Shown here in pieces: positions 6,501 to 36,524 of a stretch of 64,000 bases of DNA. The stretch's first letter is position 1, and each line of letters opens with the position of its first letter. Origin of the DNA: a virus (Duplodnaviria; Caudoviricetes); the IMG/VR virus record IMGVR_UViG_3300014205_000011, positions 24,246 to 88,245 of that record; one strand, 5' to 3'. Both the position numbers and the translations under genes were made by a program. A model generated the notes under the pieces. It made no database searches, had not been told where the DNA came from, and was given only the letters and a program-made list of their open reading frames with translations.

Positions 6501-7062
6501 ATTTAGAAGCCAATACTATGATGAAAGACTTAACCAATATGTAAAAGGTAGATACCTTACTTATGTAGACTTTTTTAAAGCTATTAAAGAACTTAAAGGT
6601 GTAGTACTAGCTTGGAATAGTCTAGATGCACATGGTAAAGCTAATATGAGAAGGAATATAATGGGTCTATTCTATACTGTTGGTACATTCCTGCTGCTTA
6701 GTTTGTTTAGAAGTATGGCAGATGATGATGATGAATTAGATAATAGTAAAGGATTTAATTTCTTTTTGTATCAAATAGATAGGTTCCAATCTGAAATGAA
6801 GTTTTACAATGTAGGTATACTTACTGGAGACTTAACTAAATTATTAAGGTCTCCAGCAGCAGCTATCACTACATTAGAAAATGTAGGTAGGATTTTTAAA
6901 GATGCTATAACTTATGATTTCTTGGATGAAGAAGAAAACCTAGTTAGAGGTGAAGACTATACTAAGCTTAACAGAGACTTTGAAAAGCTTATACCTATTT
7001 TAAAAGAAGCTAAAAGATGGAAAAATGTAGAAGATCAAAGTCAATATTTTAAGACTTTCTAG
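3505..7062 (+). CDS. Large virion ejection (cargo) protein with a zincin-like segment
   Basis: 1185 aa, helical, directly after the RNAP; TLPEEVSHFFI (EExxH); typical crAss position. Confidence 0.7.
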   Translation: MQMKCPVKNSDWIRLVEEVGELNAYKYFMLNNEETPTKEQVDKIIENRQPSIAKLLKYYNADTAGFLPKQVIVEKVKQDIKNKNLDVELKQASNGRYYLAKNGRKVTFYDLDGDSSKDEQLSQKLQDILTNIGIKIEAYDSLINRLGVDAAGAADIMNNIIYIANNKASETTLPEEVSHFFIRGLGLDNPLVKRLMDNIDQHPIYQQVLNDYTDLNYTQEELKEEAVGKLLGKYIVQEHKSTKGGVSIWEKFKGTMNLLLDKVYNLFKKITNQEMYATVEQVYGKFAKDILKGDIIVKDNNDGFFYQMSRTILSQQQMVEDKLKAIEARIKDYKAREGEYGGAKEKIEKFIKDTEKATNEIKELNEVNHEAAYLKLLELVNEAIKDTKERITTGELTELGLSRAINYMISYKNINLVDTTNEVIKKSANELEGQRLRLQTELEELAKVKLGKIALEETSSNRTVDKLLTPTSDLSWDQQNLGAMANADDSILAILDKKYKREVEDKVFEKMLIFDEKLAELLDKVNKEDLKLFIDTQDGVNRITSKWDASYYKAKKQFIESIDNLPHDIRILEWRKWFNENHTVRDANGKSHPKDRWISDKWKRIQVDPNIKALYDFVMSNKIFSDRLMGLEVYTNSEYRLPQFHKTLVEQIASQGKWEFLKGKTKKLLTSLEYTKDKNIYTDETDKPISFLKKPGTYKLEDPSTDIVNVLKAYVYSAEMYRAKRDIQGLVELTKTYVALRKVPVVNRKGAVLNQDGTPITMEGLSTRAYKRVEDWIEMIYFGNNQKDQGSFNIFGKQVDKQKVARALGKYNSVTALALNLFSATSNIIYGGVMQVMEAVGGEYYTGKDYAWATKTYATQALSPKLRELVKYFKVVQDTSEYGEKHNWISKLMFGGQTIGEDMLQVRMFLAMAHNYKVELNGEKINLWDAFEYDGKLKLKEGMELTNQDISDFRGKVRAVNQKLHGRYDTLDQAALQQYWWGYLALQFRKWMHPGFEARFRSQYYDERLNQYVKGRYLTYVDFFKAIKELKGVVLAWNSLDAHGKANMRRNIMGLFYTVGTFLLLSLFRSMADDDDELDNSKGFNFFLYQIDRFQSEMKFYNVGILTGDLTKLLRSPAAAITTLENVGRIFKDAITYDFLDEEENLVRGEDYTKLNRDFEKLIPILKEAKRWKNVEDQSQYFKTF

Positions 7063-7282
7063 TATAATTTAATTCTGGATGGTTATATTTAATATTAACC
7101 CCATATATTACATAATAGCTATTTATAATGTTATAAGGAACATTAGGTAATATAATATCTGCTAACTTAGCCCCTACAAGCAATTTACTTATTACAAATG
7201 GTATATATAAATTATGTATTCTATGTGAAGTAGGTATTACCTGTCTTCTTTTTAGTTCATCATATAATTGCTGATTTGTCAT
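7049..7282 (-). CDS. LFxP-motif microprotein
   Basis: 77 aa; LYDELKRRQVI and HNLYIP. Confidence 0.7.
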   Translation of the reverse strand: MTNQQLYDELKRRQVIPTSHRIHNLYIPFVISKLLVGAKLADIILPNVPYNIINSYYVIYGVNIKYNHPELNYTRKS

Positions 7283-7493
7283 ATTCTAAATTTGGTGGTA
7301 CATTAGTAATATCTATGAACATTGTACCTGTAAGAAAAAGTTTAGATCCACGACTAACCCAATAGTCATTACTAAGTTGTGTATTTTTTAATGCTAAACA
7401 TACTTTATTAGGTATAAACAAAGAATTTATAAAGACTGTATACTCTATAATACTTCTTTGTATTAGTGCATTATATAATTCTGTGTTTGTCAT
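7260..7493 (-). CDS. LFxP-motif microprotein
   Basis: 77 aa; LYNALIQRSII and NSLFIP. Confidence 0.7.
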   Translation of the reverse strand: MTNTELYNALIQRSIIEYTVFINSLFIPNKVCLALKNTQLSNDYWVSRGSKLFLTGTMFIDITNVPPNLEYDKSAII

Positions 7494-7696
7494 ATTGCTG
7501 GTTTAATACTTAAAAACATTCTTTTTTTTTTATAACCATAATAGACTGTTCCAGAAAAACATATTGCTGGATAATAAGGAACAGCTATCCCGTTTAAAGA
7601 AATAACAACAGCATTAGGCAAAAAAATATTTTTTAGTCTCCAACTAGAAGGAGAAGAAATAATATCTTTTGTTCTTAACTTTTCATATATTGTCAT
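7490..7696 (-). CDS. LFxP-motif microprotein
   Basis: 68 aa; KNIFLP; ATGA-type overlap. Confidence 0.7.
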   Translation of the reverse strand: MTIYEKLRTKDIISSPSSWRLKNIFLPNAVVISLNGIAVPYYPAICFSGTVYYGYKKKRMFLSIKPAI

Positions 7697-8121
7697 AAGT
7701 CTATATCTATTCTGTAATGTGAATCAAAAGAAGTTATTGAAGCTATGTGTTTATATTTATCAACTATTTCTAAAGGTATACAAGATATTTCACTTACCCC
7801 TAATTGTAACTTGTGTGTAGGATTGTTTGCTAAATGTATGTCAGTATACAACTTAGCTTTAGGAGAAGACATGTCTAATATTTCTTTCATGATGTTTTCA
7901 AAACTTGTACAACCTTTACTATACATAGACTCAAGTATAAATAAATTACTATCAGGTTTAGTACTATCTTTTTGAATTACATTACCTTTTTTATACCTGT
8001 TTTCATATTCTCTAAAATCTATACCGTCTTTAAGATTCTTCTCCCATTGATACTGAAATACATATGATGTCCTATTAAGTATCTGTAATACTTTTGTAAT
8101 ATTCTCTAAGTCTTTTTTCAT
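7693..8121 (-). CDS. Hypothetical protein (partial SNLFIL motif)
   Basis: 142 aa ORF in tandem array. Confidence 0.55.
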   Translation of the reverse strand: MKKDLENITKVLQILNRTSYVFQYQWEKNLKDGIDFREYENRYKKGNVIQKDSTKPDSNLFILESMYSKGCTSFENIMKEILDMSSPKAKLYTDIHLANNPTHKLQLGVSEISCIPLEIVDKYKHIASITSFDSHYRIDIDL

Positions 8122-8344
8122 GTATAATGAAATTATGATGTTCTAATCCTAAACTATTAGGAGATATAAAAGGATAAACATTTTTTGATGGGTATAAAGT
8201 TTTAATGTGAATTTCTGCTAATTTTATTATAGTTGTAGGAAAAAATCCTTGTGGATAACAGTTACTACCATCTTTATATATAAACACATACCCCATTTGT
8301 CTTTCTATAATGTTCCTTATTAATGTTATTTTATATTCTTCCAT
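8075..8344 (-). CDS. Probable LFxP-motif microprotein (divergent)
   Basis: 89 aa; IIERQMG and QGFFPTT. Confidence 0.55.
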   Translation of the reverse strand: MEEYKITLIRNIIERQMGYVFIYKDGSNCYPQGFFPTTIIKLAEIHIKTLYPSKNVYPFISPNSLGLEHHNFIIHEKRLREYYKSITDT

Positions 8345-8541
8345 GTATTTAAATTATAAGCAGTTTTTGAGGTTTTATGTTTAAAACTATTTCTAAACAT
8401 AAAAGCTTTAAACTGTAAATTATACCCTTCTTTTATCAATACTAGTTTAGGAAAGAATAAGTTAGACACATCATCCCATTCATAAAAAGGAACTCTTTCT
8501 AATAGTTTCCTATTGTTTAAGTTAGTTAAAGTTGTTTCCAT
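8326..8541 (-). CDS. LFxP-motif microprotein
   Basis: 71 aa; SNLFFP. Confidence 0.7.
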   Translation of the reverse strand: METTLTNLNNRKLLERVPFYEWDDVSNLFFPKLVLIKEGYNLQFKAFMFRNSFKHKTSKTAYNLNTWKNIK

Positions 8542-8771
8542 CCTCGTTTTGATTTTTTAGTATAAACATGTAATGTATCATAACCTTTAGTACACAATTC
8601 AACTCCATATGTATTTTCTTGAGGATATATCCATATTTTATTATATTCTTCAGGTCTTATTGATGCAGGCAAAAACAGTTCTGATATTCTAAACCAATTT
8701 TGATTCGTATACCAAAAGTTTACAATTGTTTTATTAATTAATACTTGTTTTATATTGTTATTTTTATACAT
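8526..8771 (-). CDS. LFxP-motif microprotein
   Basis: 81 aa; SELFLPAS. Confidence 0.7.
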   Translation of the reverse strand: MYKNNNIKQVLINKTIVNFWYTNQNWFRISELFLPASIRPEEYNKIWIYPQENTYGVELCTKGYDTLHVYTKKSKRGWKQL

Positions 8772-8986
8772 CCTCCACCACTTATTGAATTAGGAAACAT
8801 AATTAAATTAGGATAATCATAAGTATAAAATTCTATTGTTTTAAGAGTAAAACCTTTACCCATCCATACATAACAATATTCTTTAGGAACAATGTATTTT
8901 GGTATAAATAAATTTACAGTTGTGCCCCAATTTAATTTTATATTAGTGTTCCATAATATGTTTTTATTTTTTAAAATTGTCTTCAT
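8750..8986 (-). CDS. LFxP-motif microprotein
   Basis: 78 aa; VNLFIP. Confidence 0.7.
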   Translation of the reverse strand: MKTILKNKNILWNTNIKLNWGTTVNLFIPKYIVPKEYCYVWMGKGFTLKTIEFYTYDYPNLIMFPNSISGGGCIKITI

Positions 8987-8998
8987 AGTTTATAAATT

Positions 8999-9030
8999 AA
9001 AAAAGGGAGTAGCTTTTATACTACTCCCTT
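8999..9030 (-). terminator. Intrinsic terminator-like hairpin
   Basis: AAGGGAGTAG/CTACTCCCTT 10-bp stem followed by a T run on the - strand. Confidence 0.75.
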
Positions 9031-9405: not shown

Positions 9406-10329
9406 TTAACTTTCACTCACTATCATAGTGAGATATTGTTCTCTTGTTAAGCCTTTGCTTACTTTTAATGGGTGACCTTTATACTCTTCTTTGAGTATAC
9501 CTAAGTTAACATCTCCTTGACGTTGTATATATTCATACACTTCATCTATTTCAATAGATTCATGAGGTACGAGCATTTTAATATTACTAGCTATTGCAGC
9601 TATAGGATCAGTCATGAATTCTAAAGTCTCATTGTTAGAACCTTTTTTAGTAGTAATATCTACATAAAGAAAGTACATCCTGTCTGTACTTGTATCTTTA
9701 CATTTGATAATACCAAATACAGAGTCTCCTGATGGTGTAGATATAGTATGTTTATACAAGGTATATGTATCAGGAAATTCTACTTCTTCTTCTGATATAC
9801 CATCTTCTGTTACAGTCCACCTTTTATGTTTTTTCATAACAGTTTCTTCACCTATTATTTCAAGGTTAAGACCTACTACTATTTCTTCAGGTGTAAAGCC
9901 TCTAAAAGCTATTGCTTTTTGTTCTTCATTTTCTAGTGCTATGCACTCTTTTAATGTTATTGCTTTAAGATCACTTGTGTTAGAATCAGAATACATGTCT
10001 GCTATAACAGCATCTATATCTAATTTTACATTTTTCCCTTGTTCCTTATAGTCAACATTTACTAACCAAGGTAGGTTATCTTTAATATGCCCACCAAATG
10101 TAGTGCCATTACCTATAGCCCAAGGATCTTCAGCTCTATATAATTGAGCTGCTATTCTGAAACCTACAAGCATGTCAAATGCTGTGTCTTCTATACAGAA
10201 CTTATTTTGTACTGTTTCTTGTTTAGCATAGTTTTCAAGCTCTTTAAGCCATTCTGATGCTGTGTTTATTACCCTATCTTCAGGTAAAAACACTAAATAA
10301 TCTTTGTTTTCTTCTAGTGTTGCCTCCAT
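9406..10329 (-). CDS. DUF6745-like protein
   Basis: ECIALENEEQKAIAF and IKCKDTSTDRMYFLYVD...DPIAAIA pattern. Confidence 0.55.
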   Translation of the reverse strand: MEATLEENKDYLVFLPEDRVINTASEWLKELENYAKQETVQNKFCIEDTAFDMLVGFRIAAQLYRAEDPWAIGNGTTFGGHIKDNLPWLVNVDYKEQGKNVKLDIDAVIADMYSDSNTSDLKAITLKECIALENEEQKAIAFRGFTPEEIVVGLNLEIIGEETVMKKHKRWTVTEDGISEEEVEFPDTYTLYKHTISTPSGDSVFGIIKCKDTSTDRMYFLYVDITTKKGSNNETLEFMTDPIAAIASNIKMLVPHESIEIDEVYEYIQRQGDVNLGILKEEYKGHPLKVSKGLTREQYLTMIVSES

Positions 10330-10562
10330 TATATGTTTATTGTGATATTTTTAAAATTATGTTCTACTATTGTTACTACTAAGCCATTACCTGTGTCACC
10401 ACTAGTATAAGGCTTTATCTGAGTATCTTCCACTACCCATATCTGAGATAATGGATATGAAAGGGCTTTACGTAATTGATGTGGTGTATCATGTATAATA
10501 GTTACATCATCTATACCTGTTAATATAGGTTTGTATTGTTCTTTAAACTTCTCTATGTTCAT
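10329..10562 (-). CDS. Hypothetical protein
   Basis: 77 aa, abuts neighbours. Confidence 0.55.
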   Translation of the reverse strand: MNIEKFKEQYKPILTGIDDVTIIHDTPHQLRKALSYPLSQIWVVEDTQIKPYTSGDTGNGLVVTIVEHNFKNITINI

Positions 10563-10764
10563 ACTTAGTGTCTATTATTAGTTTAGCTAAAGTAAAAGGT
10601 AAAAACATTTCAAAATCTCCACACCATAATATTCTTGTTCCTTTATATAAAAATCTATTAGTAAGATCTCTTTCAATAAAAACACTATTAACATTTATAG
10701 AATAATGTTCAGTATTACTTCTAGTTCTTTTATATAATTCTGCTACTTTATCTTTGTCTGTCAT
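10543..10764 (-). CDS. LFxP-motif microprotein
   Basis: 73 aa; EMFLPFTLAKL. Confidence 0.7.
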   Translation of the reverse strand: MTDKDKVAELYKRTRSNTEHYSINVNSVFIERDLTNRFLYKGTRILWCGDFEMFLPFTLAKLIIDTKYEHREV

Positions 10765-10970
10765 AATGTTAATGATTTAGCTAAATGATATGGAAAAAAT
10801 AGTGCTAGTTCATCTTGGTATAGTAAGTAATACTTTTTATCTGCCCCCATAAACCCTACTACATCTTCTCCAGTAAAATGCATGTATTCATCTTCATTTG
10901 CACACTCAATAGCATCCCCCCAAGTAATAATAGGTTGTAATCTAAGTAGTACTTCTTCTACTTTCATCAT
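10761..10970 (-). CDS. LFxP-motif microprotein
   Basis: 69 aa; ALFFPYHLAKS. Confidence 0.7.
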   Translation of the reverse strand: MMKVEEVLLRLQPIITWGDAIECANEDEYMHFTGEDVVGFMGADKKYYLLYQDELALFFPYHLAKSLTL

Positions 10971-11191
10971 ATACTTTTACTGCTTCTAAACTCATTTTCA
11001 TATATTGATTTGAATAGTGAATATGGTAAAAATATATTAACATCATGATACCAATATTGTATAGTTTCATTGTTAATAACAATGTTAAAATGTACAATAC
11101 TTTTTAAACCTTGCCCATGAAGTTTATAAAATGTAGAAATTGTATCTTCAGAATCTTTAACACCAAGTCTAACTAAATCATTTTGTATCAT
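10967..11191 (-). CDS. LFxP-motif microprotein
   Basis: 74 aa; NIFLPYSLFKS. Confidence 0.7.
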   Translation of the reverse strand: MIQNDLVRLGVKDSEDTISTFYKLHGQGLKSIVHFNIVINNETIQYWYHDVNIFLPYSLFKSIYENEFRSSKSI

Positions 11192-11424
11192 ACTTTAACT
11201 ATTAAATTATAAGGAAGAAATAAACTATATTCATATGTGTATAATTTATATACTTTATAATCAAGTCTAAAAATATTCCACGCTTTCCCATTTTTTAAAT
11301 CATATGATTTAGCCTGAGTAACTAGATGATTTACTGTGTAAGGATAATCTTTATACTCTTTATATCTGTCACTAAGTAACCTATCTATAATAGATTGATA
11401 CAATTTTACATTTAAAGTTCCCAT
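11188..11424 (-). CDS. LFxP-motif microprotein
   Basis: 78 aa; SLFLPYNL. Confidence 0.7.
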   Translation of the reverse strand: MGTLNVKLYQSIIDRLLSDRYKEYKDYPYTVNHLVTQAKSYDLKNGKAWNIFRLDYKVYKLYTYEYSLFLPYNLIVKV

Positions 11425-12032
11425 AACTTATATTGTTGAATAACTTCTCTATTATCATGAATAAAATAAAACACCATTTTTCTATCTTCTATATTTTCTA
11501 TAGGGGTATATAATGGGCCACTTCCAGGTTTAGTAATATATCTAATAGAATCATCTGGTATTTTACCTTCTGAAACTAATAAGTCATTAAACACTTTAGA
11601 ATATATCACACCAAAGTTTTCAATGTCCCAATTATTTCTACCAGGTACTTGATATATCTCACATTCTATAATAATGGGCAAAGTTGTAATAATAGGTACT
11701 TGTTGAACATAAGGAAGTAAAAACTTTTTAAGTCCGTTTACTATATTCATTCTTACAGAATAGTTACCTGCATAAATAAATTGGTTATTAATAGCTTGAT
11801 ACTTAGGTGTTCCTGCACTCTTAGCATTAGCTACTATTCTATTACCATTTTCATTTATGAGATACCCTTCTGTGTTGAATTTGTAGTTCTTGTATTTTTT
11901 AGGAATTTTAGTCTTTCTAAGCAATCCTGGGTATTTGCTGTAGAAGATTTCTCTCCTCTTCTGGCTGACTAATACCTTGGTTATGAACTGGGGTATTGTC
12001 AGAGTATAAAATGGCTCTTGATTCTGCTTCAC
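11412..12032 (-). CDS. RusA-like Holliday junction resolvase
   Basis: WDIENF...KVFNDLLVSEGKIPDDSIRYI matches the RusA acidic motifs. Confidence 0.7.
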   Translation of the reverse strand: MKQNQEPFYTLTIPQFITKVLVSQKRREIFYSKYPGLLRKTKIPKKYKNYKFNTEGYLINENGNRIVANAKSAGTPKYQAINNQFIYAGNYSVRMNIVNGLKKFLLPYVQQVPIITTLPIIIECEIYQVPGRNNWDIENFGVIYSKVFNDLLVSEGKIPDDSIRYITKPGSGPLYTPIENIEDRKMVFYFIHDNREVIQQYKLWEL

Positions 12033-14564: not shown

Positions 14565-15915
14565 TATATAATTTTAATACGTTTGTTATTTGTGTTCTTA
14601 TTTTGTTTTTTAACTGATTGTAAATATCTATATAAACTTGATCTGATATTGCATTATTTTCTTCTATTTTTAACCAAGCTTTTTCAAATTCTATATCTTC
14701 TTCTTCTACTGGTAAAAAAGATAAAGGTAGTTGAATATCACCAAATTTTGCTGAAAGACCTTCTACATCATATTTATCTTCAAATAACTTAACAGGAGAT
14801 TTAAACTTTTTAGACATTAACTGTGTAGTTGTTGGCATATAATCAAAACATAATTTATTCACTACTCCTTTAATATCATACTGTTCATCAAATGTAATTT
14901 GAAGATTTGAAGCAACATATACTATTTTAGTTATACATTCCATAATATCCAATCCTCTAGCAATTAAAGCATTGGCTACAGCATTAGTATTTATTGAATT
15001 ATTTGAACCAGTTTCTCTATGTGACAATGCTTGTTTTATGTTAACATAAGGCCCCCCTTCAAGTGATTCATAGCTTACATAGTCACACAAATGATACAAA
15101 AATGAAGTTAATACTACAGGTTTAAATTCTCTACATAAATTACCCCATAATTGAGTAATGGCAGAGTCGCCTAAACAAAAAGCATTATAACTACCATGAG
15201 AATTACTCACACTTAAATGTGAATGTAAATATAAATAATTATTAATTATATCAGAAGAATTAAATGTAACTCTAGTACCATTAACACTACCTACAGCAGC
15301 ACATTTATCATTTGATACTACTCTAATCTTAACCAATAAATCTCTAATTATTTTAAAATGTTTTTTTGAGTTAGTAATAATTACTTTAGGAAACTTAATG
15401 TAAAAGTCTGCTGTATAAGGATATGTATCAGTTACAGTATAAGCATAATTACCTTCACCAAATATACTAGAAGCATCTTTTATAAAATATTCAACAGCAT
15501 CTTCTATTCTTTTCTTAGCTGTTTTAACATCTATAAATTTTATAAGTGAACCAAGAGCTGTTATTTGATGATAATGAAAAGTATTATAAGCAAATTTGTT
15601 AATAATTTTAATTCTACTAAGCACATCTTGTATAAACACTGCTGTTAATTTAGAACTTGTTTCTGCAGTAAAAAATAAAATATCATATTTATCTGTAGTA
15701 ATTCTGTCATAATAATAATATCTAATATCTGATAAAATTCTATCACTAAAATTACTAATGTCTATTTCTAATTCATTTAAAGCATCATTAGTATTTGTTA
15801 TCATAGAATTTTTCCACAATACATATTGCATATAGCCTAAGTTATCTACAGCTTTTTTTACTTCATCAATATTTTTTAATTTTAGTTCATCTAACCGTTT
15901 TGTATCTATAATCAT
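14476..15915 (-). CDS. Prokaryotic E2-like conjugating enzyme domain protein
   Basis: YLHSHL...AFCLGDS...YESLEGGPY resembles the E2 HPN...CL core; lies between Ubl and JAB. Confidence 0.7.
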   Translation of the reverse strand: MIIDTKRLDELKLKNIDEVKKAVDNLGYMQYVLWKNSMITNTNDALNELEIDISNFSDRILSDIRYYYYDRITTDKYDILFFTAETSSKLTAVFIQDVLSRIKIINKFAYNTFHYHQITALGSLIKFIDVKTAKKRIEDAVEYFIKDASSIFGEGNYAYTVTDTYPYTADFYIKFPKVIITNSKKHFKIIRDLLVKIRVVSNDKCAAVGSVNGTRVTFNSSDIINNYLYLHSHLSVSNSHGSYNAFCLGDSAITQLWGNLCREFKPVVLTSFLYHLCDYVSYESLEGGPYVNIKQALSHRETGSNNSINTNAVANALIARGLDIMECITKIVYVASNLQITFDEQYDIKGVVNKLCFDYMPTTTQLMSKKFKSPVKLFEDKYDVEGLSAKFGDIQLPLSFLPVEEEDIEFEKAWLKIEENNAISDQVYIDIYNQLKNKIRTQITNVLKLYSDDYYNSDFCQKRSISSKINWDTYFGVIN

Positions 15916-18689: not shown

Positions 18690-18851
18690 TTACTTTTCAT
18701 CTTTCTTTTTTAAAATTATTCTTGTCCAATAATTATTATTTATCCATTCTTCTATTAAATTTTCACTAAAAGCAATTCTTATATTAGATGTTGTCATATA
18801 CATTGACACAAAATTACTGGATAATTTTTTAGGCAAAAATATATTATTCAT
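18690..18851 (-). CDS. LFxP-motif microprotein missed by the ORF track (53 aa)
   Basis: Manual translation MNNIFLPKKLSSNF...KKDEK*. Confidence 0.55.
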   Translation of the reverse strand: MNNIFLPKKLSSNFVSMYMTTSNIRIAFSENLIEEWINNNYWTRIILKKKDEK

Positions 18852-18896: not shown

Positions 18897-19166
18897 TCAA
18901 CTCTTCAATCTCAGGTCTTTCCATAAACATCCATCTTTATTTACTATGAAATTATTATTGTATTCAGTATAACTTCCTTTACAAAAAGTTTGATGAGCAA
19001 AATCAGTAGCAAGTTTATCAGGAATTTCTACATCACGGATTAAATGATACCAAAGTTTGTATTTCAATATTAAACTATTTGGAACAAACATTTCTCTACT
19101 GTTATATATACCTTTATATGTAACATTGCGAGATATTATTTCTCTAGTTATTGCTTCTTGTATCAT
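18897..19166 (-). CDS. LFxP-motif microprotein
   Basis: 89 aa; EIISRNV and EMFVPNS. Confidence 0.65.
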   Translation of the reverse strand: MIQEAITREIISRNVTYKGIYNSREMFVPNSLILKYKLWYHLIRDVEIPDKLATDFAHQTFCKGSYTEYNNNFIVNKDGCLWKDLRLKS

Positions 19167-22423: not shown

Positions 22424-22970
22424 ATTTTAATCATTTTATACTTTATTAATGGAAGACTTCTACCCCAACCAAAACCTACATGTATACAATTAGTATCAGG
22501 CATAAATAAGTTAGACACCATACCATCATATATTAGGTGATGTTTAAGTATGTTTCTATAATGAAAAGGATGTAAAGGGTAATTATAAACTATCAGTTTC
22601 ATATCTTTCTTTTATATAACAAGTAAGTACTAAAATACCATGTTTTTGAATTTGTATACCGTCTACAAAAGTTTTAGGAACATACAGATTTCTCCAAAAG
22701 TGTAAAGAAGCCCAATCAACATACTTTACAAATACTTTTCTTTTACCTAGTTCTAGTTTAAGTTTTACGGCATTCATATCTTAATTTTAATATAGGTGTA
22801 ATATTGTTAATAGTTATTACTGAGTATACCCAGCTTGGATTACCTGGTATGAACAAATTATTATACAGTAAATATTTATCTACTATAAGACTTAATTGCT
22901 TTGCTATACCTCTACTTTTTAAATCCACGATATGTTTGGTATGTCTTTCTGAGCATTCATTAGTGTCCAT
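22420..22970 (-). CDS. Three tandem LFxP microproteins (22420-22602, 22583-22777, 22758-22970)
   Basis: SNLFMP, RNLYVP, NNLFIP. Confidence 0.65.
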
Positions 22971-24052
22971 TTTTCTTTAGTTTCCTTAAGGTATAAAAAA
23001 TATATTATAGCTTTTTTACCAAATACATATCTAAGCATACGACCTATTACTTGTTTAGCACGTCTATCTACTGAAGTTGTAGAACACACTATTCCCATAT
23101 CTACTTCAGGGGCATCAAATCCTCTTTCAAATATTTTAATAGAATTAAGTACTCTATGTTTACCTTCTTGAAACTCTTGTATAAGTTTATTTCTAACTTT
23201 ATCAGTCATATCAGAATCTATACATATACTACCAGGTATCATTTCAGTAAGAGTATTGGCAAACTTTTTAGACATAGAAAATGTAATAATCTTTTTATCA
23301 GGATTATCCAGTATTAACTGTTTAGCCATTTGTAACTTTTCATCACATTCATATATTAACTCATTTCTATCTTGCATGTTTTGTCTACATCTTTTGGCTA
23401 TGCCTATAACTTCACCTACAGTGTTGTCTAGATTAGTTTGTCTTAAAAACTCTTTAGCCCCAGGATACCCCATACAAGAAAATACTATATCCAAATCATC
23501 ATGGAAATATGCAAAATCTCTCCTAAAACTATTATCAAGTAGTTCATATGCTAAAGGTCTTTCTACAGCTATATTTTTGATTTCAAAGTCACATATCCAA
23601 CCATTTTCTAAACATTCTTTAAAACCTATATTGTCTATAACAGGAGCATATTTTTGAATCAAAATATGTTTACCATCTTTTCTTTCTAAACTAGCAGTAG
23701 CACAAAGTATATGTTTGTATTTGGAAACTTTAAAGATCTTACTAAAAGTAGTAGCAGCCATTAAATCACATTCATCTACAAGAAGTAAGTCACATTCTCT
23801 TTGTTTCTTAATGTAACTATTGATAATAAATACTTCTACTTTTGAATCTACTTGAGCTTCTACTTGTTTTTTCATTACTTTGCTGTGAACTATATAATGA
23901 ATGACAGCATCAGGAAACTTAGTTAACTTTCTTTTAGCAACTTTATTTAATAAATAACTTTTACCAAAACCAGTGCTTGCTATGACTGACCCTAATCCCC
24001 CCATATTCAACCACTTAGCTATAATACCATCTTGTTTTTCATCTCTCGTCAT
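22919..24052 (-). CDS. Superfamily 2 helicase (ResIII/UvsW-like)
   Basis: STGFGKS, LVDECD, ATAS, RGFDAP, QVIGRMLR. Confidence 0.9.
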   Translation of the reverse strand: MTRDEKQDGIIAKWLNMGGLGSVIASTGFGKSYLLNKVAKRKLTKFPDAVIHYIVHSKVMKKQVEAQVDSKVEVFIINSYIKKQRECDLLLVDECDLMAATTFSKIFKVSKYKHILCATASLERKDGKHILIQKYAPVIDNIGFKECLENGWICDFEIKNIAVERPLAYELLDNSFRRDFAYFHDDLDIVFSCMGYPGAKEFLRQTNLDNTVGEVIGIAKRCRQNMQDRNELIYECDEKLQMAKQLILDNPDKKIITFSMSKKFANTLTEMIPGSICIDSDMTDKVRNKLIQEFQEGKHRVLNSIKIFERGFDAPEVDMGIVCSTTSVDRRAKQVIGRMLRYVFGKKAIIYFLYLKETKEKWTLMNAQKDIPNISWI

Positions 24053-24906
24053 AGTATTTCAATATAATAAGTTTTAGTAGTTTTTCTACGTCTTATAGCA
24101 AAGGTAGAACTTGGTAAAAATAGTGCTTGTGTATTATAGTTAATTATCGTAATCTTATCATAAGATATATGTAATAGTTCACTAGTGTAATCAGGCATTT
24201 CACACATTTTTCTAATTATACCTCTATTCTGCCACAACTTTCCTTTTTCACTACTTGTCATTTTATTTGCCATAAAATTGATAAATCATCATTATCTACC
24301 CAAGTAAATAAACTATGCGGTAAGAAGAGACTAAAACAAGAAGAATCAGAAGGCCAGTTATAATCTGTATCCCATATCCAAACCTTTCCTTCATGTCTGA
24401 ACAAATGATACAACAGTATTTGTCTTTTAATAAATTGATCTTTCATTTTAATTTGTATATCATTTCAGAACCTCTCCAAGTATGATAAATTATACCTGAT
24501 GGTATTAGTATTTTATTAGTTAAAAACAAATGTCTTAACATTGGAAAAGGTATACAACTAAGTATACACTCTCCATTAACACCTAATCTATAATTACTGT
24601 GTGCCATTTGTCTATCTACTAACTCTTTAGCCATTATTAAGTTACCTCTTACTTCTGGGTAATCATATGAGATTTTTTTCATATTATCATATATTTAACA
24701 TGAAATTCAGGAAATGATTCACTTTCACCGATAAAATGATTTATACTTTGAAGGATAAAAATATTTAAAGGAAGTGTGTTTTCATATGTTTGACAACTCT
24801 GTTTTTTACAATACCATATACCAGTAGTTGCAACTCCCCAATCTTCATCTAATAGTCTTCTGTTTATAAGAGTATCAACTCTTTCCATATTAGGTTTTAT
24901 TTTCAT
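24049..24906 (-). CDS. Four tandem microproteins (24049-24273, 24258-24446, 24443-24682, 24679-24906): two clear and two divergent LFxP members
   Basis: ALFLPSS, SLFLPHS, HLFLT/ILIP, NIFILQS. Confidence 0.6.
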
Positions 24907-29223: not shown

Positions 29224-29656
29224 TTACCAATTTATCATTGCTTTTCTATTCAACTTAAGATAACAGACATTATCATGTTTATGATACGTTGATGGATAAA
29301 CTTTGTATTCATAAAATGAAAGTATAGTTTTAGGTATAAACATATTAGAACTTAAACGTTCAATCAAATGCTTCTTACAATGTTCAGCTTTTTCTGAATC
29401 AAAATATACACTTTTGTTCCCAAAATCAAATATAGTATCTAATTTATCCCATACTTCTTCTTGTTTATATATGTCCATATTTTCTATCTATTAATGGCTT
29501 AACTCTTATTCTTATATAACTATTTACGGGAGTCCAATAATGATGTTGAATTTCAAATATAGTATGCGGTAAAAATAGATTATAAGATGTATCTAGTATT
29601 CCCGATAAAGATTTATATATTTGTCTATTATTTACTAAATGTTTATGTAATCTCAT
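29224..29656 (-). CDS. Two LFxP microproteins (29224-29478; 29465-29656, likely ATG start)
   Basis: SNMFIP, YNLFLPHT; the annotated TTG start at 29689 lies inside the tRNA-like gene. Confidence 0.65.
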
Positions 29657-29670
29657 ATATTTTAAATTAG

Positions 29671-29746
29671 TAAACCTGGGGGGAATCAAACCCTAATCCT
29701 CTTGATTTTTAGAAGAAATCCGTGCTGTTCATTACACTACAGGTTC
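29671..29746 (-). tRNA. tRNA-Arg(TCT), degenerate (4-nt insertion in the T-stem, no CCA)
   Basis: GAACCTG/CAGGTTT acceptor; GATTT-CT TCT AA-AAATC; GG[ATTA]GGG-TTTGATT-CCCCC. Confidence 0.6.
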
Positions 29747-29770: not shown

Positions 29771-30400
29771 TTGTATATGAGAAAACCAAAAGCCATTAAC
29801 GCTACATGCAGTTCTTGTGGTAAAGAAATGCATTCTAGAGCTGTAGATAAAACTAAAGTTCTATGTAGACCTTGTAAAGCATTGCCTCCTCCTAAACCAT
29901 GTGAAACTTGTGGAATTCTTACAAAGAATCCTAAATTTTGTTCTAGTAGCTGTTCTGCAATTTATACAGGTAAACATTTTCCTAAAAGAACACTTACTAG
30001 AAAATGTAGAAGATGTGAAAATTTAGCTGCTTCATACAAAGATGCTTTATGCCTTCCTTGCAAGGAAGCTTATCATGCTGATAGATTTTTGCACAAATCT
30101 GCTGAAAATACTTTAGAGGATTATTGGAATAAACCTTCTTTAAAAAATTTACACATGTCTAGTAAAAATGCTCATATAAGAGGATTAGGAAGATCACAAC
30201 ACAAAGAACTTCTTAAACAACCTTGTGCTAACTGCGCTTATGATAAACATGTAGAACTATGTCATATTAAACCTATTAAAGATTTTCTTCCTACTGACAA
30301 AATTAAAGATGTCAATTCCCCCAGTAATATAATACAACTATGTCGTAACTGTCACTGGGAGTTTGATCATCATTTATTATCTCTAGAAGATCTAACATGA
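29771..30400 (+). CDS. Free-standing HNH endonuclease with N-terminal zinc ribbons, antisense to its neighbours
   Basis: Several CxxC pairs; CANC...HVELCHIK...NIIQLCRNCHWEFDH. Confidence 0.8.
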   Translation: MYMRKPKAINATCSSCGKEMHSRAVDKTKVLCRPCKALPPPKPCETCGILTKNPKFCSSSCSAIYTGKHFPKRTLTRKCRRCENLAASYKDALCLPCKEAYHADRFLHKSAENTLEDYWNKPSLKNLHMSSKNAHIRGLGRSQHKELLKQPCANCAYDKHVELCHIKPIKDFLPTDKIKDVNSPSNIIQLCRNCHWEFDHHLLSLEDLT

Positions 30401-32648: not shown

Positions 32649-32893
32649 ATCATGTTTTTTAATCTTTCAATTTCGAGTTCATACTTAGCTATTTGAGCAT
32701 TTACTAGTTTATTTCTTTGTGTATAAGCTTCTGCTTTCTTTTTAAATATTTTATTACCTATTTGATGGGTGATAAATGTAGGATAAGCATCTGGGCTAGG
32801 GTGAGCATAATATGTTTGTCCTCCTAGTATAAAAGGATTCATGTTACACTTTACAATTTGAAATTCTTCTGTTATTAAATATACTTCTTCCAT
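32645..32893 (-). CDS. Hypothetical protein
   Basis: 82 aa. Confidence 0.5.
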   Translation of the reverse strand: MEEVYLITEEFQIVKCNMNPFILGGQTYYAHPSPDAYPTFITHQIGNKIFKKKAEAYTQRNKLVNAQIAKYELEIERLKNMI

Positions 32894-33611
32894 TATGCTT
32901 TTTTAAAGTTGGGTAATTGAATATGCTACAATGAGGTATAAGGTATACAAAAGCTGGATCTTTATAATGTTCCTTATAATAATATCCTATTATAGAACTA
33001 GGTAAAAATAAATTTTCAGTAGCCTTTCTTGCTAAATAATCTTTTGTAAGTAACGTAATAATAGATGTATAACCTAACTGTTCATAACATTGAGGATAAT
33101 GTTTACTAAAAGTCATTATATCTCTTTTATACAACTCATTTTTCAAGTCTTCTACTAACATGTTTTTAAATTAGGTTTTATATGTATTCCTAAAACGTTT
33201 GTAGTTATGTAATACTTAGGTATAAATAAAGAACAAGGATAAAATAATTGTGGTTTATCAAAGATAAAAGATATATAACTACCATCAGGTAATTCATCTT
33301 TTATCATAGCTCTTTGTACAAAACTGTTCATTAATTTATTCATTGTTTTTTATATTAGTTTGCGATTCAAGTTCCAGTAACTTTTGTAATACTACATTAT
33401 AATGACTATGTTTTTTAGGTCTAAACCCTAATACAATAATCTTAAATTTGTTTCTACTATTAGAATAATAAATATGATAAAAACAATTTTTAACTTCTGG
33501 AGCTTGTTTTCCTTCGTAATATATAGTTCCATAGAAAGTTGACCAACTATTATATGTACTATATATTAATTTCCAATCATTAGGCAAAAACAATTTTGTT
33601 ATCCAATTCAT
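32844..33611 (-). CDS. LFxP microproteins (32844-33161, 33155-33343) and 33336-33611 with an N-terminal KLFLP
   Basis: ENLFLPSS, CSLFIP, TKLFLP. Confidence 0.62.
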
Positions 33612-33835
33612 TGTACTACTATTTTAATGATTGTTTTATTCTTACCTTCTCCTACAGTTTTATAATAAGTACCTTTATTGTAAGGTATTTCAACTTTAAC
33701 TACACTATTTTTATTTAATGAATCAGATACTTTAAACACTTGCATAGTATCTGTTTCTAAACGGCTTTTATAACTTGTTTGCCCACATAAAGACATAGTT
33801 AGTATTGCTGCTAATATTATTATTAATATTTTCAT
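33608..33835 (-). CDS. Small secreted protein
   Basis: Signal peptide MKILIIILAAILTMSLCG followed by Q. Confidence 0.55.
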   Translation of the reverse strand: MKILIIILAAILTMSLCGQTSYKSRLETDTMQVFKVSDSLNKNSVVKVEIPYNKGTYYKTVGEGKNKTIIKIVVQ

Positions 33836-33990
33836 TGTTTAATTAGTTTAATAGGTAAATAAAGATTAAGTCTATTAGGTATCCATACAAAACGTTTAAA
33901 TATATAATAACGATAAGCTTGTGCACTTAACAAATTTTTTGACATCATTTGCTGAATAATGTCATTCTTAAAGAGAGACTTACTACCCAC
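33832..33990 (-). CDS. LFxP microprotein missed by the ORF track (52 aa, GTG start)
   Basis: Manual translation ...QQMMSKNLL...RLNLYLPIKLIKQ*. Confidence 0.55.
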   Translation of the reverse strand: MGSKSLFKNDIIQQMMSKNLLSAQAYRYYIFKRFVWIPNRLNLYLPIKLIKQ

Positions 33991-34092
33991 TTAACCCTCC
34001 TGTGTGATTGTTATCATCATGTGTAATTATAGCTATAAGTACAACAAGTGTAAATAAAGCTGCTATACTTATTACTGTTATGTAAAAATCTG

Positions 34093-34537
34093 TCATGATA
34101 ATTCTAGTATTAAAGGTTTCTTTTGTAATATAAAAGGATCTTCACTGCATATAATAGCAAATTCTTCTGGTGTAATATTAGTAGTATCTACTACTGGCAC
34201 ATCTACTCTGTTTTTACCAGTTTCTAATGAAATCAGTGTTACTATATTTCCTCTAAGATCAGCTAATATAAATAGCTCATCATTATTTACATCTAAGTAA
34301 ATGTTTCCTGTTTTTATGTTCATGTTATTTTATTGTAAGATCTAAAATTTGTGTACTAAGAATTTTAAATTCGCTTTTAGTATTGGGTATAAAAAGATTT
34401 ATTGTGTTTTGATAACAATAGTGTAAACGTACATCTATAAATTTACTTTTAAAATAAATAGCTAATTCAGGTGTAAGATAAGAAGGATTATAACTAGTAC
34501 GATATATCATCCTATTTATTATATCAAATTTTTCCAT
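34093..34537 (-). CDS. Hypothetical protein (34093-34323) and LFxP microprotein (34325-34537)
   Basis: The second has DIINRMI and INLFIP. Confidence 0.6.
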
Positions 34538-35070
34538 ATCAATACTTTTTTTACAGCTTTACACAAGTCTAATAGAGTTCCACTATTTACAATAATTACA
34601 TCACAAAGTAAATTTAATTGCTCACCTTCATTTTTAACTATACCTATTATAAAATGTTCTTCTTGTTTAATTCTGTCTAACTCTACTGGAAACCTTAAAT
34701 CATCTATTATCCAATTATCATCTTTGGTGTAATTATCAAATAAAGCTTTAACCCATACATCATTGCCAAATATGTTTTTACATTGCTCACAGAACTCTAT
34801 AAACCTGGGTCTTTCCTTTTCTTTATCTCTTCTAGATAAATCATGATAATCTAGTCCAGTTATATCAAAATATATATTTGCTGGAGGCTCACTAAACTTA
34901 ACAATATCCCAAGAAAAAATAGAATTTGCCTTTTTCTCAGTTAGCCAGTTTACTACTATTTCTTCATCATATTCTTCTTCCCATTCTTTTTGATACAAAA
35001 ACCAATGTATTATTTGTGCTACAGTTGACTTACCAACTGAGTTATTGTTTGCTGTTATTGCTATGATCAT
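34519..35070 (-). CDS. Deoxynucleoside monophosphate kinase
   Basis: NSVGKSTVA, GNDVWV, WIIDDLRFPVE, IVNSGTL. Confidence 0.8.
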   Translation of the reverse strand: MIIAITANNNSVGKSTVAQIIHWFLYQKEWEEEYDEEIVVNWLTEKKANSIFSWDIVKFSEPPANIYFDITGLDYHDLSRRDKEKERPRFIEFCEQCKNIFGNDVWVKALFDNYTKDDNWIIDDLRFPVELDRIKQEEHFIIGIVKNEGEQLNLLCDVIIVNSGTLLDLCKAVKKVLIWKNLI

Positions 35071-35212
35071 TTTCTTTTAAGTTTACTTGTAAAATATTTT
35101 TTAAATCCCATACAACTAAGTACAAGCATTTCAACTCTTAGTTTAATTTTTAACCTATACCACCAAGATTCTTTTTCAAGATCATCAAGTATTTTTTGGG
35201 CTATTTTGCTTT

Positions 35213-35485
35213 TCATAAAATTTTTATTTTAAGTTCTAAACTTCTACTATTTTTATCAGTAGAATAATAAATATTAACTGTATCTTTAAAATAAAATATT
35301 GAACTAGGTAAAAACAAATTTGATCTGTTTAAAGTAAGTATATTATTAATAGTAACTTTATAATTATATATACTGTTAGGATTTATATCTAATTCATTAT
35401 AAGTTTCTTTCAGAAAACTTTTTCGAGTTTTATATTGATATAATATTTTTCTTGTTTCAAAAATTTTTTCAATGTCTTTATTCAT
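35213..35485 (-). CDS. LFxP-motif microprotein
   Basis: SNLFLPSSIF. Confidence 0.7.
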   Translation of the reverse strand: MNKDIEKIFETRKILYQYKTRKSFLKETYNELDINPNSIYNYKVTINNILTLNRSNLFLPSSIFYFKDTVNIYYSTDKNSRSLELKIKIL

Positions 35486-36095
35486 AACTTTCTTAAGTTA
35501 ATACATTCTTTTTTTAACAATTTTAAGTATTCTATTTTATCTGTACAACTAAGAGAAAAGTCTCTCATAAGATCATCTAAAGATCCATATTCAAAATAAT
35601 CATTATCAGGATCATATAATAAAGAAGCTATTTCATAACATACAAGATCCATATAATAACTATAAAAATCACCACTATAATTACCTACCATCTTCATAGC
35701 AGGTTTACCTATAGAAATAAACTTAGCGCATAAATAACATTTATGCATTTTCTTAGTTTTAACTTTTTTTTCTATATGAAAATTCATATCTTATAATATT
35801 GTTCTTTAGGTTTGCCATTATTAAACCAGTTAAACATACCCCAATGAGTAGCTTTAATGTTACCATTTATAGCAATAGGTATTATTTTACCACCTTGTTT
35901 AAGAGTACCAAGTATATTAGATAATTGATTTTTATCTAACATTACACCATCTTCTTTAAGTTGTAACATAATTTTTTTAGCATTACAGAAGTAACCTATT
36001 TTCTCTATAGTTTGCCATACTATTTGTTTATTAGTATTAGGCTCTACATTCTTATTTAATTTTACTCTACGTTCTGTTTCCATAATATTTATCAT
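35482..36095 (-). CDS. Cys-motif protein (35482-35787) and winged-HTH-like protein (35784-36095)
   Basis: HKCYLC...DLVC; NAKKIMLQL...QLSNILGTLKQGGKI. Confidence 0.5.
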
Positions 36096-36524
36096 AATTA
36101 TTGTATGAGCATGTCATCCAAGACAAATGTATTTCAATTCTTAATGCTGATGTTGGAATAAATAAATTTTGATTAAAATTTATTGTTTGTTTTGTAAAAA
36201 ATTGCTTATAATGTTCAAGAGATGCTTCTTTACTTAAAGCTAACCAATTCATTAAGCTTTTACTTATATTTTTATCGTATAATTGACTCATTTAAACATT
36301 TTTCTTTTTACGGCTATAGTAGTCCATTCATAACCTTCAGAATCTTTACCTGTTTCATAAAACTCAAATATACTACTAGGTAATAATAAATTTAAGCAAC
36401 ATTGATTTATAACAAAATCAGATTTGTAAACAGCCCATTCCCTTGTATGAATTTCTCTAAAGGCTAATATTTTTTCAAAATCTTTCATAAGTTGTTTAAT
36501 AAAAATACTACCCTGGTTATCCAA
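36067..36524 (-). CDS. Two LFxP microproteins (36067-36291, 36288-36524)
   Basis: QNLFIPTS, LNLLLPSSIF. Confidence 0.65.

What the first reader, a model, noticed from the sequence alone, without database searches (positions are those of the whole stretch)
7049..36524. About 29 dispersed microproteins share an [N/S]-L-F-[L/I]-P motif
Seen in the sequence: about 27 ORFs of 60-105 aa in the track, plus two short ones found by hand, carry NLFIP/SLFLP/NIFLP-type motifs, often followed by xS[IL]F. Many also have an N-terminal L-x2-3-R-x-[IV] helix (LKRRQVI, LIQRSII, LYKRDIM, LINRRLL). Everything else is hypervariable. They sit in tandem blocks at 7.0-9.0, 10.5-11.4, 18.7-19.2, 22.4-23.0, 24.0-24.9, 29.2-29.7, 32.8-34.5 and 35.2-36.5 kb, between core replication genes. 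Synonymous variation (CCT/CCA, TTA/TTG/CTG, TTT/TTC) points to selection on the peptide. Inference: a constant docking motif with a variable target-binding surface suggests a library of adaptors or anti-defence effectors. They could be substrate adaptors for the Ubl system, analogous to F-box proteins (speculative).
Basis: partly seen in the sequence, partly recalled or inferred. Interest (0 to 1): 0.87.

Follow-up and report, generated by a model that had tools for sequence, protein, structure and literature searches.

The report
Fast-evolving small-protein family in crAss-like phage
An 88-kb crAss-like phage spends about 7% of its genome on some 28 very diverged copies of one undescribed small protein that keep only two short sequence anchors. 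Such gene-family expansions are known in phages and usually mark host-interaction genes, but what this family does is untested.

Summary
In the minus-strand replication block (7.0-36.5 kb), 26 of 64 small ORFs carry [LIM]-[FY]-[LIFVM]-P. Residue shuffling gives 1.2 on average, with a maximum of 6. Wobble positions vary, and Leu and Ser each use both codon families, so the constraint is on the peptide, not the DNA.

It is a homologous family, not a free-standing motif. Members share two anchors:
- an N-terminal helix, E-L-x3-[RK]-x-[ILV];
- N-L-F-[IL]-P-x-[ST]-h-h, 8-37 residues further on.

Weak similarity in the flanks survives when the motif is removed. One listed ORF (33336-33611) is a chance match and one (18690-18851) is doubtful, which leaves 27-30 members.

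The family also occurs in three related phage contigs (helicase 64-69% identical), in the same syntenic slots. Copies there are unrecognisable by BLAST, although neighbouring genes are 31-75% identical. It is absent from a fourth relative that keeps the Ubl operon, and from 2 Mb of more distant phages. The BCS1 ATPase is missing from a relative that has the family. The proposed Ubl-adaptor link is therefore not supported.

No known family, fold or paper matches. Function is inferred only: probably diversifying host-interaction proteins.

The scan noted this same stretch in an overlapping window. It also noted analogous but unrelated expansions in jumbo phages.

The parts
7049..7282 (-). family member, 77 aa (N-L-Y-I-P)
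   Evidence: profile E 8e-10; similar to its neighbour 7260-7493, E 4e-5
7260..7493 (-). family member, 77 aa
   Evidence: profile E 2e-10
7490..7696 (-). family member, 68 aa
   Evidence: profile E 5e-9
7693..8121 (-). possible longer degenerate member, 142 aa (S-N-L-F-I-L at residue 58)
   Evidence: by eye and regex only; the profile does not recover it
8075..8344 (-). possible degenerate member, 89 aa (L-I-R-N-I-I, then G-F-F-P-T-T-I-I)
   Evidence: by eye; the profile does not recover it
8326..8541 (-). family member, 71 aa
   Evidence: profile E 6e-11
8526..8771 (-). family member, 81 aa; tandem duplicate of 8750-8986
   Evidence: BLASTP E 6e-8 to its neighbour; profile E 4e-12
8750..8986 (-). 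family member, 78 aa
   Evidence: the only full-length match among 1.84 billion representatives is itself (one partial hit, E 4e-4)
10543..10764 (-). family member, 73 aa, motif near the C-terminus
   Evidence: profile E 4e-8
10761..10970 (-). weak family member, 69 aa, motif near the C-terminus
   Evidence: profile E 0.003
10967..11191 (-). family member, 74 aa
   Evidence: profile E 6e-7
11188..11424 (-). family member, 78 aa, motif 11 residues from the end
   Evidence: profile E 3e-5
18690..18851 (-). doubtful member, 53 aa, motif at residues 3-7, no N-terminal anchor
   Evidence: profile E 0.018; sits in a slot where relatives have true members
18897..19166 (-). family member, 89 aa, in the DnaB/AAA_24 slot
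   Evidence: profile E 2e-11; members in the same slot of L002 and L003
22420..22602 (-). family member, 60 aa
   Evidence: profile E 4e-9
22583..22777 (-). family member, 64 aa
   Evidence: profile E 4e-12
22758..22970 (-). family member, 70 aa
   Evidence: profile E 2e-6
24049..24273 (-). family member, 74 aa
   Evidence: profile E 9e-8
24258..24446 (-). family member, 62 aa
   Evidence: profile E 2e-10
24443..24682 (-). degenerate member, 79 aa (Pro replaced by Thr)
   Evidence: profile E 7e-5
24679..24906 (-). degenerate member, 75 aa (Pro replaced by Leu)
   Evidence: profile E 7e-8
29224..29478 (-). family member, 84 aa
   Evidence: profile E 3e-10
29465..29689 (-). family member, 74 aa; target of the first AlphaFold2 model
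   Evidence: profile E 5e-13; model pLDDT 71, helix 9-21, hairpin 45-63
32844..33161 (-). family member, 105 aa, long spacer
   Evidence: profile E 5e-11
33155..33343 (-). family member, 62 aa
   Evidence: profile E 1e-8
33832..33990 (-). family member, 52 aa, motif 10 residues from the end
   Evidence: profile E 5e-6
34325..34537 (-). family member, 70 aa
   Evidence: profile E 1e-8
35213..35485 (-). family member, 90 aa
   Evidence: profile E 4e-9
36067..36291 (-). family member, 74 aa
   Evidence: profile E 2e-9
36288..36524 (-). family member, 78 aa (Phe replaced by Leu); best profile score
   Evidence: profile E 1e-15; weak cross-genome hits to L002 and L003 members, E about 3e-4
33336..33611 (-). 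NOT a member: a conserved unrelated small protein with a chance L-F-L-P near its N-terminus
   Evidence: orthologue L002:3666-3965, 34% identity, E 4e-12; the orthologue has no motif at that place

Best explanation
This is one clade-specific, fast-diversifying multigene family of small proteins (about 50-105 aa). The proteins are mostly basic and rich in Trp, Tyr and Phe.

Shown:
- The genes are real coding genes in accessory slots between conserved replication genes of a distant crAss-like phage.
- Every member keeps the same order of elements: an N-terminal helix with E-L-x3-[RK]-x-[ILV], a variable spacer of 8-37 residues often rich in aromatics, then N-L-F-[IL]-P-x-[ST]-h-h, then a variable tail of 11-65 residues.
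- The strongest similarities are between adjacent genes in one genome, so copies arise by local tandem duplication.
- Copies in the same slot of related phages have diverged beyond BLAST recognition, while flanking genes stay 31-75% identical.

Inferred:
- The two anchors form the constant folding or interaction core of one small domain.
- The rest of the surface is free to change.
- The copies act as a set of intracellular binders or inhibitors made during the replication phase, each aimed at a different or changing host molecule (takeover or counter-defence).
- The family does not depend on the phage's Ubl operon or BCS1 ATPase.
For: - Enrichment: 26 of 64 small ORFs carry the motif, against a shuffle mean of 1.19 and maximum of 6.
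- Codon pattern: conservation sits at codon positions 1 and 2, with variable wobble and both Leu and Ser codon families in use.
- Two anchors in 47 aligned members from three phages: R/K 47 of 47, hydrophobic at +2 in 47 of 47, N 39, L 43, F/Y 44, P 42. The extended motif holds in 56 members.
- Flank similarity with motif columns removed: mean 3.6 bits against 1.3 for shuffles. No shuffle replicate exceeded 2.1, and 8 of 29 members scored above 5 bits against 4% of shuffles.
- Adjacent pairs give the best BLAST hits: 8526/8750 at E 6e-8, L002 7743/7924 at 5e-13, L003 9233/9346 at 3e-11.
- In the syntenic 14-35 kb, most non-family genes, including several of 66-99 aa, have orthologues in L002 or L003 at 26-75% identity. 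No true family member has one at E below 1e-3.
- The family is present in L002 (9 of 31 small ORFs), in L003/G001 (8 of 26; 10 profile hits in the whole genome) and, in degenerate form, in L166.
- Coding evidence: the annotated frame has the best codon log-odds in 28 of 28, and most starts overlap the upstream gene by 4-23 nt.
- Composition: median pI 9.3 against 5.7 for other small ORFs (p 0.006); aromatics 14.6% against 8.9% (p 1e-6); extra Arg and Trp, which AT bias does not explain. Fifty-one of 57 fall on the folded side of a charge-hydropathy plot.
- Context: crAss-like phages are known to carry blocks of short genes without homologues that were suspected, but not shown, to be anti-defence genes (PMC7886860).
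Against: - No function was tested.
- AlphaFold2 gives only moderate confidence and no compact fold: pLDDT 71 and 72.5, pTM 0.41 and 0.46. The minimal 50-aa member is a helix followed by coil. The claim of one folded domain therefore rests on sequence logic, not on a model.
- A contiguous invariant stretch with polar Asn and Pro, plus a spacer that varies from 8 to 37 residues, also fits two linear docking elements.
- Low GC (25.3% against 28.7% in large genes) and fast divergence could partly reflect relaxed constraint rather than an arms race.
- No dN/dS could be computed, because no closely related strains were available.
- Expression is not shown.
Confidence: 0.5

Rival explanations
1. Docking-handle adaptors. 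The N-L-F-h-P stretch, perhaps together with the N-terminal helix, is a linear motif that plugs into one common hub protein of the host or phage. The variable body brings different targets to that hub, or blocks it.
For: - The conserved part is short and contiguous, and includes Asn and Pro.
- It lies in a non-regular segment of both models.
- Anchor spacing and tail length are very variable.
- Everything else is hypervariable.
Against: - No hub was identified.
- BCS1 is absent from G001, which has the family.
- The Ubl, E2-like, JAB and E1 operon is present in L004, which has no member.
- The proteins are hydrophobic and aromatic-rich and look folded, not disordered.
- The flanks carry residual homology.
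- The two ORFs with the motif at the extreme N-terminus turned out to be a non-member and a doubtful member.
- In L166 and several L002/L003 copies the Pro is lost while N-h-F-h stays.
Confidence: 0.2
2. Small nucleic-acid-binding proteins. The family is a set of basic, aromatic-rich DNA or RNA binders that modulate transcription, replication or RNA fate, with the variable parts setting sequence preference.
For: - Median pI is 9.3 against 5.7 for other small ORFs.
- Asp and Glu are depleted, and Arg, Trp and Tyr are enriched.
- The genes sit inside the replication module.
- The only solved-structure sequence match, though weak, is a winged-helix ribosomal protein (eS10, E 0.018).
Against: - Eleven of 59 members are acidic.
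- There is no match to any DNA- or RNA-binding family in Pfam or PHROGs.
- No fold match was found.
- Close to 30 paralogous regulators in an 88-kb genome would be without precedent.
- Part of the composition may come from AT bias.
Confidence: 0.15
3. Virion-loading tag. The shared anchors direct diverse small proteins into the capsid so that they are ejected with the DNA, as the capsid targeting sequence does for T4 internal proteins.
For: The logic of a constant tag with a variable payload is the same. T4 internal proteins are established knowledge, not tested here. crAss-like phages are known to eject cargo proteins (my own knowledge).
Against: - The genes lie in the replication block, not the structural block.
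- The main motif is internal and its position is variable.
- No protease-site pattern follows the N-terminal anchor.
- No evidence of packaging exists.
Confidence: 0.05
4. Artefact. The motif is a chance product of AT-rich ORFs, or a DNA-level signal such as a promoter or recombination site read through by spurious ORFs.
For: The genome is 25-30% GC, and the motif codons are AT-rich.
Against: - Shuffles give 1.2 against 26 observed.
- Antisense ORFs have 2 of 106.
- In 2 Mb of other phage DNA (161 further loci), no locus has more than one such small ORF.
- Wobble positions are free, and Leu and Ser use unrelated codons.
- The distance to the next gene varies with tail length, from 11 to 65 residues.
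- Coding potential is best in the annotated frame in 28 of 28.
Confidence: 0.02

Closest known systems
Tandem paralogue expansions in jumbo phages: the Zn-ribbon expansion of about 35 copies in Bacillus phage G (Iyer et al. 2021, PMC7824862), and arrays of more than 30 similar genes in phages G and 121Q (Hua et al. 2017, PMC5646251)
   Same: - One small gene multiplied tens of times by local duplication.
- Restricted to one phage lineage.
- Function unknown or only guessed.
   Different: - The genome here is 88 kb, not a jumbo phage.
- The copies are spread over at least 8 blocks between replication genes, not in one array.
- They are far more diverged (about 13% mean column identity).
- They have no Zn-ribbon or other known fold.
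Blocks of short genes without detectable homologues in crAss-like phages (Yutin et al. 2021, PMC7886860)
   Same: - Same phage assemblage: the major capsid protein is 27-29% identical to those of crAss-like phages.
- Same kind of short, homologue-less genes.
- The authors suspected anti-CRISPR roles but could not show them.
   Different: In this clade most of these short genes are shown to be paralogues of one family with a two-anchor signature. That paper does not describe this.
T4 internal proteins with a shared capsid targeting sequence (established knowledge; not tested here)
   Same: A short constant sequence on otherwise unrelated or hypervariable small proteins. The payloads include anti-restriction factors.
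   Different: The T4 tag is strictly N-terminal and followed by a prohead-protease site, and its genes are tied to head assembly. Here the main motif is internal, and the genes lie in the replication block.
F-box / PRANC substrate adaptors and the multigene families of large eukaryotic DNA viruses (established knowledge)
   Same: The logic of a constant handle with variable specificity, and expansion in a virus genome.
   Different: - No sequence or fold relation.
- No hub identified.
- No dependence on the phage Ubl system.
AbrB/SpoVT/MazE swapped-hairpin domain (Pfam PF04014)
   Same: A hydrophobic stretch ending in I/L-Pro, followed by x-x-I/L and a beta-hairpin. Small size.
   Different: - No Pfam match in 39 members.
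- No fold match.
- An N-terminal helix replaces the N-terminal strand.
- Asn-Leu-Phe is not part of that signature.

Membership tests
Lineage-specific paralogue expansion of a small phage protein (a kind, not a named family) | Many copies in one genome that are demonstrably homologous | tested here: met
   About 27-30 copies. Two anchors are conserved in 47 aligned members. Flank similarity lies above shuffles. Adjacent pairs reach E 6e-8 to 5e-13.
Lineage-specific paralogue expansion of a small phage protein (a kind, not a named family) | Restricted to a narrow clade | tested here: met
   Found only in contigs with a helicase at least 64% identical. Absent from L004 (54% identical) and from the 160 other loci fetched from more distant phages. 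Searches of 1.84 and 5.8 billion proteins return only the family's own contigs.
AbrB/SpoVT/MazE swapped-hairpin domain | Match to the Pfam model, or a swapped-hairpin beta-barrel fold | tested here: not met
   No Pfam hit at E up to 1 in 39 members. The models show a helix plus a hairpin and no barrel. No PDB match.
Bacterial beta-clamp-binding motif (Q-L-[SD]-L-F or Q-L-x-L-x-L; consensus from my own knowledge) | Gln at position 1 and a hydrophobic residue at position 5 or 6, usually at a protein terminus | tested here: not met
   Position 1 is Asn in 44 of 56 members and never Gln. Position 5 is Pro and position 6 is variable and polar. The motif is internal.
   L004 has Ubl, E2-like, JAB, E1 and RusA homologues in synteny but no family member.
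BCS1 cannot be required, since G001 lacks it yet has at least 10 members.
eS10 / plectin-type winged helix | Significant sequence or fold similarity to the winged-helix domain | tested here: inconclusive
   This was the only hit of the family profile against PDB sequences, at E 0.018 over 50 positions. No member hits the Pfam model, and there is no fold match.
T4-type capsid targeting sequence proteins | Tag at the extreme N-terminus followed by a protease site; protein present in virions | not testable with these tools
   The N-terminal anchor starts 6-28 residues in. Virion content is unknown.

The most novel reading that the evidence does not exclude
The two anchors are a docking handle for one host or phage hub. 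The roughly 28 paralogues would then be a phage-encoded library of adaptors or inhibitors that retarget or block that hub. This F-box-like logic has not been described in a bacteriophage, and here it would be maintained by continuous duplication and diversification.
Probability: 0.15. Interest if true: 0.8.

Novelty: new member of a known kind. Interest (0 to 1): 0.45.

Why it matters
Nearly a third of the genes in the replication block of this phage, about 7% of its DNA, belong to one family that no database or paper found here describes.

The family shows that some of the 'blocks of short orphan genes' noted in crAss-like phages are not unrelated orphans. They are the product of repeated duplication and very fast divergence around a tiny conserved core.

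That gives a handle for experiments. Two short anchors can be mutated. Positional orthologues can be compared. A simple profile now finds members.

If the copies prove to be counter-defence or takeover factors, the family would be a compact natural library of binders built on one scaffold. As it stands it is a well-documented new family of unknown function. The phenomenon is familiar from jumbo phages and large eukaryotic viruses.

Tried and rejected
- Pfam and PHROGs gave nothing, neither on 10 single members nor on all members of alignments A2 and A4. No family recurred.
- phmmer of 8750-8986 against 1.84 billion representatives found only itself.
- Profile A2 against 5.8 billion proteins found only its own contigs at near lengths and nothing at longer lengths (weak evidence).
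- ESM Atlas on two members gave no usable hit.
- Fold searches of the model against PDB with Foldseek, PDB with VIA wide, and BFVD found nothing significant.
- A homodimer prediction for 29465-29689 gave no verdict: score 0.03, and the controls were not run. This is no evidence either way.
- AbrB-like and clamp-binding-motif readings were rejected (see Membership tests).
- The eS10 similarity is borderline and unsupported by other tools.
- The search for related loci with the single helicase found nothing. With the helicase alignment, IMG/VR and the metagenome collection gave only G001 as a close relative.
- The genome search on L002-L004 was not possible because the records are not held.
- dN/dS was not attempted, because paralogues and positional orthologues are saturated.

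Full report
**Context**

The window is bases 24246-88245 of an 88,245-bp virus record with direct terminal repeats. Its terminase, portal and major head protein match phage families. The capsid protein's best relatives are crAss-like phages of Bacteroides and Flavobacterium, at 27-29% identity. It is therefore a distant crAss-like phage, most likely of a Bacteroidota host.

Genes at 7-48 kb run on the minus strand. They include RusA-like, Ubl/E2-like/JAB/E1, primase, SSB, AAA_24, DnaB-like, SF2 helicase, BCS1-type AAA, an intron-split PolB and RNA ligase.

Yes. x-[LIM]-[FY]-[LIFVM]-P occurs 39 times in minus-strand frames and 15 times in plus-strand frames. In a tiled gene set, 26 of 64 small minus-strand ORFs carry it. 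Residue shuffles give a mean of 1.19 and a maximum of 6 in 2000. Thirty large ORFs (7189 residues) hold 3.

All motif ORFs lie between 7049 and 36524. The small genes at 36.6-48 kb have none, and the other 24 kb of the genome has no comparable small-ORF match. Antisense ORFs serve as an AT-rich control: 2 of 106 carry the motif.

**Peptide or DNA?**

Aligned on the motif, information sits at codon positions 1 and 2 of Leu, Phe, the hydrophobic residue and Pro. Wobble positions are near background. Leu is written TTA, TTG, CTA, CTG, CTT and CTC. Ser is written TCT and AGT. Pro uses all four codons.

The distance from the motif to the next gene varies widely, because the tails are 11-65 residues long. 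A DNA-level signal is therefore excluded.

A codon model trained on the core genes scores the annotated frame best in 28 of 28 family ORFs. Most starts overlap the upstream gene by 4-23 nt. These are ordinary operonic genes.

**A family, not only a motif**

MAFFT alignments of members from three phages recover two anchors. In 47 aligned members:
- A basic residue is invariant (R 39, K 8). All 47 have a hydrophobic residue two positions later, and E-L commonly sits four to five positions before.
- In the second anchor, N occurs 39 times, L 43, F/Y 44, I/L/V 44 and P 42.

Over 56 members the second anchor extends to N-L-F-[IL]-P-x-[ST]-[ILV]-hydrophobic. The spacer between the anchors is 8-37 residues, and the tail is 11-65 residues.

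I then removed the five motif columns and built a profile from the relatives only. Window members scored a mean of 3.6 bits against 1.3 for shuffled flanks. The best of 50 shuffle replicates reached 2.1. Eight of 29 members exceeded 5 bits, against 4% of shuffles. The reverse test gave the same result.

The best pairwise similarities are between adjacent genes of one genome:
- 8526/8750, E 6e-8;
- 7049/7260, E 4e-5;
- L002 7743/7924, E 5e-13;
- L003 9233/9346, E 3e-11.

This points to local tandem duplication.

**Corrections to the list**

- 33336-33611 has a 34%-identical orthologue in L002 whose corresponding stretch is not the motif. It is an unrelated conserved gene.
- 18690-18851 lacks the N-terminal anchor and scores E 0.018 even though it was in the training set.
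- 8075-8344 and 7693-8121 look like degenerate members by eye, but the profile does not recover them.
- The count is therefore about 27-30 genes. The 28 counted members occupy 6,267 nt, or 7.1% of the genome.

**Relatives**

The SF2 helicase found four related contigs.
- L002 (69% identical helicase) has 9 of 31 small ORFs with the strict motif, plus several degenerate copies.
- L003, which is part of the complete genome G001 (64%), has 8 of 26. The whole genome gives 10 profile hits.
- L166 (64%) has two degenerate copies without Pro.
- L004 (54%) has none.

The remaining loci fetched from phages whose helicase is about 30% identical, together with L004, L005 and L166, make 161 loci (about 2 Mb, 11,404 ORFs). 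None of them holds a member: the best profile E is 0.022, and no locus has more than one small ORF with the strict motif.

A search of 1.84 billion representative proteins with one member returned only itself, apart from one partial hit at E 4e-4 to a 1486-aa protein. A profile search of 5.8 billion proteins returned only the family's own contigs.

**Rate of change**

Within the syntenic 14-35 kb, most non-family genes have orthologues in L002 or L003, at 26-75% identity. These include small ones of 66-99 aa at 38-67%. None of the true family members there has a hit at E below 1e-3.

Yet members occupy the same slots. For example, between DnaB and AAA_24 there are two in the window, two in L002, one in L003 and none in L166 or L004. 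The family therefore turns over or diverges much faster than its neighbours while keeping the anchors.

**Properties**

Members are basic, with median pI 9.3 against 5.7 for other small ORFs (p 0.006). They are aromatic-rich, at 14.6% against 8.9% (p 1e-6). Asp and Glu are low, and Arg, Trp and Tyr are high.

Their GC content is lower than that of large genes (25.3% against 28.7%), so part of this composition may be mutational. Enrichment of Arg and Trp is not explained that way. Fifty-one of 57 fall on the folded side of a charge-hydropathy plot.

**Structure and known families**

AlphaFold2 with the family alignment gave pLDDT 71 for 29465-29689. The model has a helix at 9-21 and a hairpin at 45-63 just after the motif, and residues 41-70 are the most confident part. 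The minimal 50-aa member of L003 gave pLDDT 72.5, with a helix at 4-13 and then coil. Neither model is compact.

Foldseek against PDB and BFVD, and an exhaustive VIA search, found nothing. The ESM Atlas gave no usable hit. Pfam and PHROGs gave no hit and no recurrent weak family. The family profile against PDB sequences gave one borderline hit, ribosomal protein eS10 at E 0.018, which nothing else supports.

The constant-plus-variable architecture and peptide-level selection are confirmed. A docking role is not shown. The hydrophobic context, fixed element order and flank homology favour a conserved core of a small domain. The contiguous Asn/Pro-containing motif and the elastic spacer keep the docking model alive.

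The specific link to the Ubl system is not supported. L004 has Ubl, E2-like, JAB, E1 and RusA homologues in the same order but no member. BCS1 is not needed either, because G001 lacks it and has at least 10 members.

**What is known**

Expansions of one small gene in a phage genome are described for jumbo phages: about 35 Zn-ribbon copies in phage G (PMC7824862), and arrays of more than 30 similar genes in phages G and 121Q (PMC5646251). Yutin et al. noted blocks of short homologue-less genes in crAss-like phages and suspected anti-CRISPR roles without success (PMC7886860). I found no paper that describes this family.

Earlier notes of this scan record the same stretch from an overlapping window. 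They also record analogous, unrelated families in jumbo phages.

**Verdict**

This is a real, undescribed, clade-restricted and fast-diversifying small-protein family in a mid-sized crAss-like phage: a new member of a known kind of phenomenon. The most likely role is a set of host-interaction proteins on one scaffold, but that is inference. The adaptor reading keeps about 0.15-0.2 probability, and the Ubl-specific version only a few percent.

Noticed in passing
L003:6191-8651 (G001) versus window 26134-28986: The close relative G001 encodes a family A DNA polymerase (PF00476, apparently in two pieces) at the place where the window and L002 have a family B polymerase. This is a PolA/PolB swap between phages whose helicases are 64% identical.
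   Followed up: no
L003:129-2457 (G001): Three adjacent ORFs of 210-287 aa hit aminoacyl-tRNA synthetase families (tRNA-synt_1b, tRNA-synt_2c, tRNA-synt_His/2b). These are short synthetase-like genes in an 85-kb phage.
   Followed up: no
L002:13434-15463: The DnaB-like helicase gene of L002 is split. A 50-aa N-terminal piece and the rest (14753-15463) are separated by a GIY-YIG/NUMOD1 endonuclease gene, which suggests an intron like the one in the window's PolB.
   Followed up: partly
L003:10004-11435: The SF2 helicase of L003 matches in two pieces (10004-11029 and 11313-11435) with a short ORF between. This may be an insertion or a frameshift.
   Followed up: no
L004:264-3038: The family-less relative L004 carries NAMPT/NAPRTase and a phosphoribosyltransferase-like gene, a possible NAD salvage module.
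   Followed up: no
window 29771-30400 (+): A lone plus-strand gene sits inside the minus-strand block. It is Cys-rich with an HNH-like C-terminus by eye, so it is probably a free-standing homing endonuclease. I did not check it against Pfam.
   Followed up: no
window 33608-33835 (-) and L004:4458-4679: A small protein with an N-terminal hydrophobic leader and a similar C-terminal half is conserved between the window and L004. This is by eye. It is a candidate exported protein.
   Followed up: no
window 22184-22423 (-) and L002:9781-10011: This acidic 79-aa protein is 67% identical between the two phages. It is a useful contrast to the hypervariable family next to it.
   Followed up: partly
window 10543-11424 (-): In the four members of this block the second anchor lies near the C-terminus, with only 7-19 residues after the Pro, and the N-terminal anchor is weak. 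They may form a distinct subfamily.
   Followed up: partly
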